Shown here: in pieces, positions 7,490 to 21,601 of the stretch
Numbering within the stretch: position 1 is the stretch's first letter
How the letters are laid out: each line of letters starts with the position of its first letter
Source of the DNA: Candidatus Freyarchaeum deiterrae
GTDB taxonomy: Archaea > Asgardarchaeota > Jordiarchaeia > Jordiarchaeales > Jordiarchaeaceae
Reading direction: 5' to 3'
DNA: 64,000 nucleotides
Assembly (NCBI GenBank): GCA_037305845.1
Contig: CP147778.1
Coordinates: 1,856,001 to 1,920,000, forward strand
Made by a program: the position numbers and the translations under genes
Notes under the pieces: generated by a model
What the model was told of the DNA's origin: nothing
What the model saw: the letters and a program-made list of their open reading frames with translations, nothing else
The model's database searches: none

Positions 7490-8639
7490 ATGTGGAAACT
7501 AATTCGCCCTGATGCGTATAGAGTTTGGAATGATAGTATTGTTCGAGAAAGGCTTTGGAGATACTACGAGGTATTTAATAACAGACTCAACGCCAAGTTT
7601 TTAATTGCTTTGAAAGTGGGTGCAGATGTGGAACTAGATGCTGAATCGGGTAAGCTCTGGAGTGTACACGATAAAACTAGTGGCATATTCAGAGGCCTCT
7701 TGAAACGTGTTGACACAGGTGAAGTAAAATTAGATGATATGGACTCACCGAAGATTTCTTATTTAGATCTAAAGGTTGAACTTGCCCGTAGAATTCTATC
7801 CGAGTGCCATTTCTGTGAAAGGCGGTGCGGAGCTAACAGATTAGAGGACAAGAAAGGATTTTGTAAATTAGGAAGCGCGTCTTATGTATCCACGGCTTTC
7901 TTGCACACTGGTGAGGAAGCTCCCTTAGTTCCATCCGGCACAAACGCTTAATGAGCATTGCTCTAGCGGTGCATTCTTCTTCTCCAGTTGCACGTTTAAA
8001 TGTGTATTTTGTCAGAACTACGATATTTCAACAAATCCGAAAAGCGGTATTGAAACTTCAGGAGAAAGTCTTGCACGAATAAGTAGAGACTTGAGAAGAG
8101 AGGGTGCAAGAAATGTAAATTATGTGGGCGGGGAGCCAACACCCAATACTTACAACATTTTAAAAGGTATCAGGGAAACCAAAACAAACGTTGCTCAACT
8201 ATGGAATTCTAACATGTACTGCTCTAAAGAATGCATGAAACTTCTGCTAGATGTTATGGATTTTTGGCTTCCAGACTTTAAATATGGAAACGACCAGTGC
8301 GCCGAAAGATTAAGCAAAGTTTCGAATTATTGGGAAATCGTCTCCAGAAACCATAAGATGGCTTACGATGAAACCGTAGAAACCGGAGCGTCAGGTATGA
8401 TCATAAGACACCTAGTTTTACCAAGTCATATCGAATGCTGTACCAAACCGGTTCTTGAGTGGATAGCTAAAAACTGCCCAAAGGCTTTGGTTAATATCAT
8501 GGAACAATATCATCCTACACATGAAGTATCAGGAAACAAGGAGTTCATGGACATAGATAGAAAAGTCACTCATGAAGAGATGGAAGAGGCGTACAGGACC
8601 GCTGATGAATTGGGAATTATCTGGCAACCTGTATCTTAA
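7490..8639 (+). CDS. PflX-like radical SAM protein, spliced: join(7490..7943,7975..8639), 372 aa
   Basis: After removing a 31-nt BHB intron it reads HTGEEAPLVPSGT-I-FFSSCTFKCVFCQNYDIS (CxxxCxxC), then VGGEPTP and LPDFKYGN. Confidence 0.88.
7944..7974 (+). other. 31-nt BHB intron in the PflX-like gene
   Basis: GCAC-AA^A ... GTGC-AT^T; inner stems CGCT/AGCG and GAGC/GCTC; removal repairs the frameshift and stop. Confidence 0.88.
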
Positions 8640-16165: not shown

Positions 16166-17296
16166 TCACCGTGTTACTATTGCCTTTTTTAAGGCTTCAA
16201 GAAGGTCGTGTGCTTCATTGTTTTCTTCAAAATGCCTCCTAACATTTTCCAATAGATTAATGAGCGCCTCCGCAGTGGCTTGCTTCAAATCCATGGGATG
16301 AAGATTACCACCAGCATAAGCTGATTTCAATTCGTCAAAACTCGTAAAGTCCACAGGCCCTCCGAATTTCTCCTTACGTTCCACATGAAGCTTAGAACCA
16401 TCTCTCGAAAGAAGGAGAAGCCTATTTATCTCGATTATCGGATTAAACTCCAACTGTTTCGGTGGGCAAAAAGCCGCTCCAATCTTCGCCCTTATATCCT
16501 CCGGCGTATCATGGATAAAAACAGCGGTCTGAGGCTTAGATTTCGACATCTTAGCCTCCATTAAAGCATCCTCATCCTCCTCCTCTCCCCCCTTTTTAAC
16601 ATCCATTCGTGATAAGCCCTGCAAACCAATCAGAAGAGGTGTATGAATAGCCACAGGCTTCCAATCCAAACCCAACTTGGGAGCCAACTCCCTAGCAAGT
16701 ACATGAGCCCTCCTCTGATCAGTTCCCCCCAAACACAACTTAAAACCAGAATACAAAATATCAGCAACCTGAATACAAGGATAAAGCGTTTTAGAATAAT
16801 CAGACTCCGCCTCATCCACCTTACGGCCCATAATACTCATAGCCCTCTTAACACGAGCAAGAGTAATATTCTTAGCAACATTAATCACCGTCCCCCAATA
16901 ATCCAAATCATCCATAAGATCCTCTGCTCTCTCAAACTGAACCCTCCCAGTATCTATACCCAGCGACTCCAAACAGTGCTCAATGTACCTCGCACACATG
17001 TGAATAGTATCCATGTCTCCACCAAACTTGTCATTAATCTTAGCATGCCAAGTTGCCTCGAGAACATGCACATCAGCATCAGCCAGAACCAAATCCTGAA
17101 GCTTCCAAGCCCAAACCACCCAACCTATATGAAATATTCTGGAACCATTAGGACAACTAAAGGCTTATCCAGAAGGCTCAACACCAATATAGGCTTTAGG
17201 ATGGCTTTCAACCTCAAACAAACTCTGCAAATCCTCAACCGTAACAACCTCATCCAAGCCACGCGAAACCATCTGAACCTTTTCCTCAGTATCCAT
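16166..17296 (-). CDS. tyrS: Tyrosine-tRNA ligase, spliced: complement(join(16166..17136,17167..17296)), 366 aa
   Basis: YIGVEPSG-L-FHIGW restored by removing a 30-nt BHB intron; YPCIQVADI, GGTDQRRAH, KMSKS; GGAGG upstream of ATG 17296. Confidence 0.93.
17137..17166 (-). other. 30-nt BHB intron in tyrS
   Basis: mRNA sense CTGG-AT^A-AGCC...GGTT-CCAG-AA^T; creates an in-frame TAA if unspliced. Confidence 0.9.
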
Positions 17297-19984: not shown

Positions 19985-21601
19985 TCAGGTACCCTCAGCC
20001 CAACCATGAATATACGCATCCTGCTCTGGAGTCAGAACATCCAACTTAAGACCCATAGCCGCGCACTTTAATTGAGCCACAGTATTATCAATCGCTTCGG
20101 GAATATCCAAAACAACACTGCCCATCTTAGACAAAGACTCCCTGTTCTTGACAATATACTCTACCGCCAAAGCTTGGTCTGAGAAGCTCATGTCCATAAC
20201 CTTACCAGCCACATGCATAGTAAAAACTCCCAAAGGTGTTGGTTTATTGTGGGATGACATTTTTTGATTTGACTCAGTATCCCTCTGCTTAACACTTCTA
20301 CATAATGGTGTTAAGGGAGAACTAGAAATACTGGTCCACAATCCGCCACCACAGCAAGTTCACACATCTAGAAGTTTTAATTAAACATGTGGTCACTGGG
20401 GTGCCCCTCTGCACAAGCTAGATTCACAAGTCTGCCTTGTCCGAGTAGGTAAATTTTTCTTCCGTCTTTCATTGTGTATTCGTCGACTAGTGGTCTCAAC
20501 TCTCGTTTGCTGACACTGAGTTTCTCTAGGTCCGGTATGTTTATTTCGACATTGAAGTGCCCAGTGTTACAAATTGTCGCCCCGTTTTTGAACTTCTTCA
20601 TATGCTCTGCGTTAACCACGTTTTTACAGCCCGTAGCTGTGACGAAGATGTCGCCTACCTCAGCGGCTTCTATCATGGGCATCACATCGAATCCCTCAAG
20701 TGCAGCCGTTAGCGCTCTGTGTGGGCTAATCTCGCAGATGATAACTCTTCTGGCGCCTAGTCCCTTGGCTCTTATCGCTACGCCTCTACCGCAATGACCA
20801 AAACCAGCGACTACAAAAACTTTACCTGCTATAAGATCCGCTGTTGCTCTTAGTATGCCGTCGATGGTGCTTTGTCCGGTTCCCCACAGGTTATCAAATT
20901 TGGGCGCAAACACTTCAGCGTTTACGTTTCCCATTTTGTGGGGGTGTCGTTAGTGGCTAAAATCGGATAGAGTAATACATTATCTTTGGCCATAGCCCTC
21001 AACCGAACAATTCCGGCCATATGTTTAATAAAAACTCTCAGGGGCATTAATGATTTAACATATGGATTCCGGTCGTGGTTTCTTCGGCTCCGGCCCATAC
21101 GGTGTCTGCCCAGTCTTTTTTTTCTCCTAGGATTTTTTTGACTATTTTTATTTCTTCTCCTGTTTCTCCTCTTTTCAGTTTGATGAGTGTTGATACCAGG
21201 TCGGCGCCGTCGTCCAGAGTAATGTTGGGTTTCGCTTTGATTACGTTGGCTATTGCTCTGTAGTAGCCTTCGTGGTCCATTCCTTTCCAGCCGTAGGTGG
21301 ATATGCCTTCTTTTACCAGAGCTGCGACGACGTGGTCCTGTGTTGATAGTGGATTAGAAGCGCATAGGTAGACCTCAGCGCCGCCTGCTTTCAGGGTTTT
21401 CGCGAGCACCGCGGTCTCCTTGGTTAAGTGGAGGCATGCTCCCACTTTCACGTTTTTGAGTGGTTTCTCTTTGGTGAATCTTTGTTTTACTTGCATGAGT
21501 ACCGGCATGTGTGCTTCTGCCCATTCTATTGTGCTCTGTCCGCTTGGCGCCAATTTCATGTCTTTGACTTCGTATTTTTCTCCTTTTTCTGTTTGTGACA
21601 T
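19985..21601 (-). CDS. ahcY: S-adenosylhomocysteine hydrolase, four exons: complement(join(19985..20202,20394..20898,20928..21010,21067..21601)), 446 aa
   Basis: Spliced product has [75 protein letters not shown]; exons total 1341 nt. Confidence 0.93.
20203..20393 (-). other. 191-nt BHB intron 3 of ahcY
   Basis: CCAG-TG^A-CCACATG...CATGTGG-CTGG-TA^A; restores GHPSEVMD. Confidence 0.88.
20899..20927 (-). other. 29-nt BHB intron 2 of ahcY
   Basis: TGGG-AA^A-CGTAAACGC-TGAA-GTGTTTGCG-CCCA-AA^T; restores KWEFDN. Confidence 0.9.
21011..21066 (-). other. 56-nt BHB intron 1 of ahcY
   Basis: CCGG-AA^T-CCATATGTT...AACATATGG-CCGG-AA^T; restores ETTTGIVRL. Confidence 0.9.

What the first reader, a model, noticed from the sequence alone, without database searches (positions are those of the whole stretch)
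7944..7974. 31-nt BHB intron immediately before the radical-SAM CxxxCxxC motif
The helix GCAC/GTGC has bulges AA^A and AT^T, with nested stems CGCT/AGCG and GAGC/GCTC. Splicing joins A+TC (Ile) to give PSGTIFFSSCTFKCVFCQN. The unspliced mRNA stops at 7951.
Basis: seen in the sequence. Interest (0 to 1): 0.8.

Follow-up and report, generated by a model that had tools for sequence, protein, structure and literature searches.

The report
tRNA-type intron in Asgard enzyme mRNA
A conserved iron-sulfur enzyme gene of an Asgard archaeon (a close microbial relative of eukaryotes) is split by a 31-base intron of the kind normally cut out of tRNAs; in the papers I could search, such splicing inside an archaeal coding sequence is proven for only one gene (cbf5), whereas this genome appears to use it in many.

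Summary
Observation confirmed. Removing 7944-7974 at the standard bulge-helix-bulge (BHB) cuts joins ORFs 7490 and 8639 into a 372-aa PflX-like radical SAM protein (PSGT-I-FFSSC); unspliced, it stops at 7951. The genome is Ca. Freyarchaeum (Asgard). All 9 other genomes of its order that hold the gene, and 3 probable Helarchaeales, carry an insert at the same nucleotide (27, 28, 31, 33 nt) with the same 4-bp helix, differing but paired inner stems, and frozen synonymous sites; about 100 other archaeal orthologues have none there. Both exons are under strong purifying selection, and no single frameshift or readthrough fits all carriers. Odinarchaeum has a different BHB intron inside CxxxCxxC, where a crenarchaeal orthologue holds an intein. 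The genome encodes a crenarchaeal-like (alpha/beta) EndA and RtcB; four more inserts verified in tyrS and ahcY; a strict genome scan gives 11 frame-restoring BHBs versus 1 and 1 in nulls. Splicing itself is inferred: no RNA data. The outer helix is weak and a rival fold is 2 kcal/mol better. This scan already noted this intron in other genomes. Verdict: cbf5-like mRNA intron, part of an apparently unpublished multi-gene system.

The parts
7490..7943 (+). Exon 1 of PflX-like radical SAM gene (151 codons + A of Ile152; includes N-terminal CxxCxxxC at residues 106-113)
   Evidence: purifying selection
7944..7974 (+). 31-nt BHB intron; shifts the frame and holds the stop
7975..8639 (+). Exon 2 (TC of Ile152 to stop); radical SAM core, no in-frame start codon before 8091
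7938..7941 (+). 5' (exon) strand of the central 4-bp helix, GCAC; Gly/Thr third positions frozen in carriers
7942..7944 (+). 5' bulge AA^A, cut after 7943
   Evidence: cut rule from PMC2738675
7945..7968 (+). Inner intron hairpin (CGCT/AGCG, GAGC/GCTC)
7949..7951 (+). TAA stop ending the unspliced frame (153 aa)
7969..7972 (+). 3' (intron) strand of the central helix, GTGC, invariant in 13 carriers
7973..7975 (+). 3' bulge AT^T, cut after 7974
7908..7919 (+). Predicted long-range exon-exon helix, 5' arm (pairs with 7976-7987); strong in this genus only
7989..8012 (+). CxxxCxxC [4Fe-4S] motif (Cys157, 161, 164)
17137..17166 (-). 30-nt BHB insert in tyrS; removal restores the EPSGLFHIGW motif
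   Evidence: absent in 4 other Asgard genomes
20203..20393 (-). 191-nt BHB insert in ahcY; removal restores EGHPSEVMDMSF
20899..20927 (-). 29-nt BHB insert in ahcY; removal restores KWEFDNLWGT
21011..21066 (-). 56-nt BHB insert in ahcY; removal restores EETTTGIVRL

Best explanation
A genuine protein-spliced (EndA/RtcB-type) intron in an mRNA. SHOWN: the gene is interrupted in DNA; the 31 nt can fold with the exon into helix-bulge geometry; removal at the canonical cuts restores a conserved protein; the geometry is conserved while sequence and length vary; the genome encodes two EndA paralogues and RtcB. INFERRED: the (alpha-beta)2 splicing endonuclease cuts after the second nucleotide of each bulge (7943^7944, 7974^7975), RtcB ligates the exons, and only the spliced mRNA yields the 372-aa enzyme; unspliced mRNA gives a 153-aa fragment without the [4Fe-4S] motif. 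Most likely the intron is a tolerated passenger kept because a broad-specificity EndA (needed for this lineage's heavily interrupted tRNAs) removes it, inserted in a motif where only exact removal is viable; a regulatory role (expression gated by splicing capacity or by the rival fold) is possible but unsupported (about 25%). The host protein has the PFL-activase fold; its substrate is unknown.
For: Same-nucleotide inserts of 27/28/31/33 nt in 10/10 Jordarchaeales genomes with the gene and 3 family-f24 genomes; none at this site in 24 other Asgard and about 75 further archaeal orthologues. Central helix paired in 100% of cells, inner stem 87.5% with 6 of 8 pairs changed on both sides; slid controls 28-53%. 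Thr codon ACA 13/13 vs 6/24, Ile ATC 13/13 vs 9/24, Gly GGY 13/13 vs 15/24 (kin not independent) although synonymous sites are near saturation (pS about 0.7). dN 0.04-0.12 vs dS 1->2.4 on both exons within genera. EndA alpha with Tyr/His/Lys residues, best matches the crenarchaeal enzymes and ungapped across their extra loop; second paralogue lacks the His; RtcB present. Other BHB inserts restore conserved motifs in tyrS, ahcY and cbf5, gatE-like and others; strict scan 11 vs 1 and 1.
Against: No transcript evidence. Outer helix only 1-2 bp. In 30-nt flanks the BHB is the predicted optimum in only 7 of 17 carriers; 2.1 kcal/mol above the optimum here and up to 6-7 in others. Folding z-score of the 40-nt unit is only -1.7 here. 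Two carriers (G003, G022) fail my strict inner-stem test.
Confidence: 0.9

Rival explanations
1. Translational recoding: the ribosome frameshifts, reads through or hops over the hairpin, with no splicing.
For: In this genome the two frames overlap by 20 nt; a stable hairpin follows the take-off point; in families f2 and f24 an intact ATC codon follows the insert.
Against: Insert lengths are 0, +1 and (site B) +2 mod 3; in the four same-genus relatives the exon-1 frame stops 10 nt before the exon-2 frame opens, so no single shift works; two carriers are in frame with a TGA. Shift or readthrough would add 9-11 residues inside a beta strand whose spacing never varies. A hop has no matching landing codon (ACA vs GCA) and gives Phe, not Ile, here. 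Recoding does not explain the frozen exon-intron helix.
Confidence: 0.04
2. Pseudogene or two separately translated halves; the hairpin is an insertion scar.
For: The DNA frame is broken; a terminator-like hairpin plus U-rich tail lies at 7955-7982 (one such site is expected by chance).
Against: Strong purifying selection on both halves with no second lesion in 13 genomes; single-copy orthologue; the break falls inside the radical SAM domain (fold spans residues 129-371) and exon 2 has no start before the Cys motif.
Confidence: 0.02
3. A real intron, but removed by another route (unknown nuclease, template skipping by polymerase, or DNA-level excision in some cells).
For: Relaxed outer helix and competing folds.
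Against: The geometry (4-bp helix, 3-nt bulges, cut after the 2nd nt) is precisely the EndA rule in all 17 PflX introns and 4 neighbours; no joined DNA form in four DNA runs (contigs drop rare variants); no direct repeats at the ends.
Confidence: 0.04

Closest known systems
cbf5 pre-mRNA intron of Desulfurococcales/Sulfolobales (Watanabe 2002; Yoshinari 2006; Yokobori 2009, PMC2738675)
   Same: Short (16-44 nt there, 27-33 here) ORF-less intron in a coding sequence, relaxed BHB, cut between 2nd and 3rd bulge nt, phase-1 position in a conserved motif, variable length and frame, patchy presence, hetero-oligomeric EndA.
   Different: Host is a PflX-like radical SAM gene, lineage is Asgard, and the genome has many such mRNA introns (up to three in one gene) rather than one; splicing is proven for cbf5, not here.
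Non-canonical BHB tRNA introns of Freyarchaeia/Jordarchaeia/Atabeyarchaeia (PMC11291895; bioRxiv 10.64898/2026.10.13.758758)
   Same: Same organism group, same motif and enzyme; repeated independent gains.
   Different: Those papers deal with tRNA genes only; term searches found no mention of mRNA introns. No tRNA body is present here.
BHB intron in the 5' UTR of Haloferax HVO_1309 (PMC7714728)
   Same: EndA acting on an mRNA.
   Different: Untranslated region; does not gate a reading frame.
IRE1/RtcB splicing of XBP1/HAC1 mRNA and TSEN cleavage of mRNAs in eukaryotes (from memory; not tested)
   Same: Spliceosome-independent removal of a short frame-shifting intron (26 nt in XBP1) with tRNA ligase.
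   Different: IRE1 cuts two stem-loops, is signal-regulated and unrelated to EndA; no evidence of homology or regulation here.
PFL-activating enzyme / PflX (COG1313, K04070) for the host protein
   Same: Best structural match PFL-AE 3c8f (Foldseek E 9e-11; Z 18.9, 230 aligned, rmsd 3.0); Pfam Radical_SAM and Fer4_12.
   Different: 20% identity, far below the PFLA cut-off, extra 128-residue N-terminal part with CxxCxxxC; no glycyl-radical gene next to it (the four in the genome lie far away).

Membership tests
Archaeal EndA-spliced BHB intron | 4-bp central helix between exon and intron strands | tested here: met
   GCAC/GTGC, 100% paired in 11 distinct carriers
Archaeal EndA-spliced BHB intron | Two 3-nt bulges with cuts after the 2nd nt giving the correct product | tested here: met
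   Only this cut gives the conserved Ile152
Archaeal EndA-spliced BHB intron | Inner (intron) helix adjoining the 5' bulge | tested here: met
   4+4 bp here; compensatory changes across carriers
Archaeal EndA-spliced BHB intron | Outer exon-exon helix (strict hBHBh' form) | tested here: inconclusive
   1 bp here, 2 bp in relatives; relaxed form as reported for most cbf5 introns
Archaeal EndA-spliced BHB intron | BHB is the fold adopted in the native transcript | tested here: inconclusive
   Optimum for the isolated unit but 2.1 kcal/mol above a rival fold in context
Archaeal EndA-spliced BHB intron | EndA (hetero-oligomeric for relaxed motifs) and RtcB encoded | tested here: met
   Two EndA paralogues, one catalytic and crenarchaeal-like; RtcB
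Archaeal EndA-spliced BHB intron | Spliced RNA / cleavage by EndA demonstrated | not testable with these tools
   No RNA holder listed
cbf5 intron family (by homology) | Located in the catalytic Asp codon of cbf5 | tested here: not met
   Host is a radical SAM gene; this genome's cbf5 has its own 32-nt candidate at G000 1483415-1483446
Group I / group II intron | Ribozyme core of hundreds of nt matching Rfam models | tested here: not met
   31 nt; no Rfam match in the window
Homing-endonuclease BHB intron (archaeal rRNA type) | Intron-encoded LAGLIDADG ORF | tested here: not met
   No carrier among 17 exceeds 33 nt
PFL-activating enzyme (TIGR02493) | Score above equivalog cut-off | tested here: not met
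   27 bits vs 231.75 for exon 2; fold similar
Radical SAM superfamily | CxxxCxxC, GGEP motif and partial TIM barrel | tested here: met

The most novel reading that the evidence does not exclude
Several Asgard lineages (Jordarchaeia/Freyarchaeia, Helarchaeales, Odinarchaeia) run a multi-gene, spliceosome-independent mRNA splicing system on the tRNA machinery, with introns gained repeatedly in conserved catalytic motifs (twice or three times within 40 nt of this one gene), so that protein genes in pieces existed in the eukaryotes' closest relatives before or beside spliceosomal introns, and splicing capacity may gate expression.
Probability: 0.6. Interest if true: 0.85.

Novelty: new variant of a known kind. 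Interest (0 to 1): 0.7.

Why it matters
Archaeal coding-sequence splicing has been a one-gene curiosity (cbf5) in the papers searched. A conserved intron in an unrelated gene across an Asgard order and a second lineage, an independent one in Odinarchaeum, and at least about ten more in this genome would make mRNA splicing a regular step of gene expression in the closest prokaryotic relatives of eukaryotes. It bears on where non-spliceosomal splicing (RtcB-dependent XBP1/HAC1 type) and selection for separating splicing from translation came from, makes intron gain and loss countable at defined sites, and means standard annotation truncates or misses core genes in these genomes. It is directly testable with existing metatranscriptomes and a recombinant enzyme.

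Tried and rejected
No RNA holder listed for the stretch: no evidence either way. Lenient genome-wide BHB scans, with a codon model or with ORF dominance, did not exceed shifted-cut nulls (the codon model even scored this Cys-rich gene negative, and the energy constraint was not enforced); only the filter 'BHB is the free optimum' did (chosen after the first failed, so treat 11 vs 1/1 as indicative; two null hits look like real introns read in a second frame). Single-sequence fold was useless. The tree needs 2 changes for site A (f24 sits apart from Jordarchaeales) but one clade is not rejected (AU p 0.19), so independent gain, transfer and ancestral gain with losses cannot be told apart. Breaks in G029 (1-nt shift) and G024 (in-frame protein loop) are not BHB introns. 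No copy of the intron elsewhere in the genome. No conserved gene neighbourhood across phyla. Paper searches for cbf5+Asgard, PflX, COG1313 and 'mRNA intron'+Asgard found nothing relevant; the library lacks most subscription papers, and PMC2738675 mentions earlier unconfirmed predictions of other archaeal mRNA introns.

Full report
1. Observation. Two ORF pieces, 7490-7951 (153 aa) and a frame ending at 8639, are halves of one gene. Removing 7944-7974 gives a 372-aa open frame reading PSGT-I-FFSSCTFKCVFCQN. The insert has the stated anatomy: central helix GCAC/GTGC, bulges AA^A and AT^T, inner stems of 4+4 bp, stop at 7949-7951. The outer helix is a single G-C pair, so this is a relaxed BHB. 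The sequence is identical in contigs of three DNA runs that span the site, with no indel or joined form, so it is not an assembly error.

2. Organism. The genome is one contig of 3,576,204 bases, the length given for SRVP Freyarchaeota in the supplement of PMC11291895, described there as Ca. Freyarchaeum deiteterre, where 92-95% of tRNA genes have introns. A same-order relative is titled Jordarchaeia.

3. Is it more than chance? The motif alone is not: lenient BHB shapes that restore a frame occur about 9,700 times in the genome, equal to nulls with the 3' cut shifted. The comparison carries the case. All nine other genomes of the order that hold the gene have an insert at the same nucleotide, of 31, 31, 31, 31, 27, 28, 28, 28 and 28 nt. 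Three genomes of family f24 have one of 28, 33 and 28 nt with an unrelated inner hairpin; G142 matches the published statistics of Hel_GB_A (3.84 Mb, 333 scaffolds, 82.4%), so f24 is probably Helarchaeales (inference). Twenty-four other Asgard orthologues have no insert, nor do about 75 more archaeal orthologues at this site. Shuffled inserts form the motif at the fixed site in 0.02-0.1% of trials. Across 11 distinct carriers the central helix is fully paired and 6 of 8 inner pairs change on both sides; slid controls fall to 28-53% (related sequences inflate this). Exon third positions that build the motif are frozen (ACA 13/13 vs 6/24; ATC 13/13 vs 9/24; GGY 13/13 vs 15/24) while synonymous sites elsewhere approach saturation.

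4. Rivals. Both exons show dN far below dS, so no pseudogene. The break lies in strand 149-154 of a domain that spans residues 129-371 in a confident model of an intron-less orthologue (pLDDT 95.7), and exon 2 has no start codon before the Cys motif, so no split gene. Insert lengths cover several frames and in four relatives the first frame closes 10 nt before the second opens, so no single recoding event serves all.

5. Mechanism. The genome encodes a catalytic EndA subunit 1 kb beyond the window end whose best solved relatives are crenarchaeal (3p1z, E 8e-43) and which aligns ungapped across the YGQPL..KP loop region (that this is the loop tied to relaxed substrates is from memory plus PMC12397907), a second paralogue without the catalytic His, and RtcB. 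I infer cleavage after the second nucleotide of each bulge and ligation by RtcB, as shown for cbf5 (PMC2738675). Caveat: in longer context the BHB is 2.1 kcal/mol above a rival fold here and up to 6-7 in some carriers; in this genus a long exon-exon helix (7908-7919 with 7976-7987; -15 to -21 vs a mean of -8.5 kcal/mol in intron-less genes) may help to close the site. With coupled translation a ribosome ending at 7949 would melt the exon strand, so splicing must win between rounds (inference). Whether this regulates anything is open; a tolerated passenger is the simpler reading.

6. Part of a system. A strict de novo scan (BHB as free optimum, 40 nt or less, -8 kcal/mol or better) finds 11 frame-restoring sites against 1 and 1 in nulls, among them this one, ahcY, cbf5 and a gatE-like gene; it misses in-frame, relaxed and multi-intron cases, so it is a floor, and the filter was chosen after looser ones failed. 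Four Odinarchaeum genomes lack site A but carry a different 29-nt BHB just before the last Cys of CxxxCxxC, the position at which a Desulfurococcales orthologue holds a LAGLIDADG intein. The protein tree needs two changes for site A, though one clade is not rejected.

7. Known and new. It works like the cbf5 intron and meets the testable features of an EndA-type intron, but is not a cbf5 homologue, nor group I/II. PMC7714728 (2020) names cbf5 and one 5' UTR as the only archaeal mRNA cases; recent Asgard intron papers treat tRNAs only; my searches found no report for Asgard mRNAs, within an incomplete library. This scan has noted the same intron in other genomes and the Odinarchaeum one before; those notes are not independent support. 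Added here: the probable Helarchaeales carriers, the frozen synonymous sites, the frame argument, the intein at site B and the null-controlled scan.

8. Verdict. Real feature; spliced BHB mRNA intron with probability about 0.9; new variant of a known kind; interest 0.7, limited by the lack of RNA evidence and the cbf5 precedent.

Noticed in passing
L024-L026, L038, L088 (Odinarchaeum; e.g. L024:2122-2150 minus strand): Independent 29-nt BHB intron just before the last Cys of CxxxCxxC in the same gene; helix strands co-vary (ACGC vs GCGT).
   Followed up: yes
L081:106-1533 (Desulfurococcales, P0001): LAGLIDADG intein inserted before the last Cys of CxxxCxxC, the same position as the Odinarchaeum intron: a shared hot spot for parasitic inserts.
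   Followed up: partly
L034-L036 (G142, G140, G141; probably Helarchaeales): Same-site intron with an unrelated A/U-rich inner hairpin; sister family f25 has an unbroken frame (368-372 aa).
   Followed up: yes
window 17137-17166 (-), 20203-20393, 20899-20927, 21011-21066 (-): BHB inserts in tyrS (one) and ahcY (three, one of 191 nt folding as a long hairpin).
   Followed up: yes
G000 735531-735558 (+), 987065-987095 (+), 1619887-1619919 (+), 2285374-2285405 (+), 1483415-1483446 (-), 1472160-1472189 (-), 1589354-1589381 (-), 2125908-2125928 (-), 1987305-1987343 (-): Further BHB candidates from the strict scan (HD-domain, NadE-like, PHP-like, cbf5, gatE-like by eye; the last three surfaced in null frames and may be real in another frame).
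   Followed up: no
window 7955-7982: Rival hairpin followed by a U-rich tail that looks like an intrinsic terminator; competes with the BHB in this genome only.
   Followed up: partly
G000 1921033 (1 kb past the window end, L031:1147-1782): Catalytic EndA subunit gene directly downstream of a PhoU/DUF47-like gene.
   Followed up: yes
L002-L005 (same-genus relatives): A second, AmmeMemoRadiSam-like radical SAM gene lies next to the PflX-like gene on the opposite strand; not so in this genome.
   Followed up: no
whole genome: ARAGORN finds only 17 tRNA genes, many mis-parsed, and none in the window, as expected from multi-intron tRNAs.
   Followed up: no
L041 (G029): One-base frameshift in the NVNWVGG motif of the orthologue, probably a sequencing error.
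   Followed up: partly
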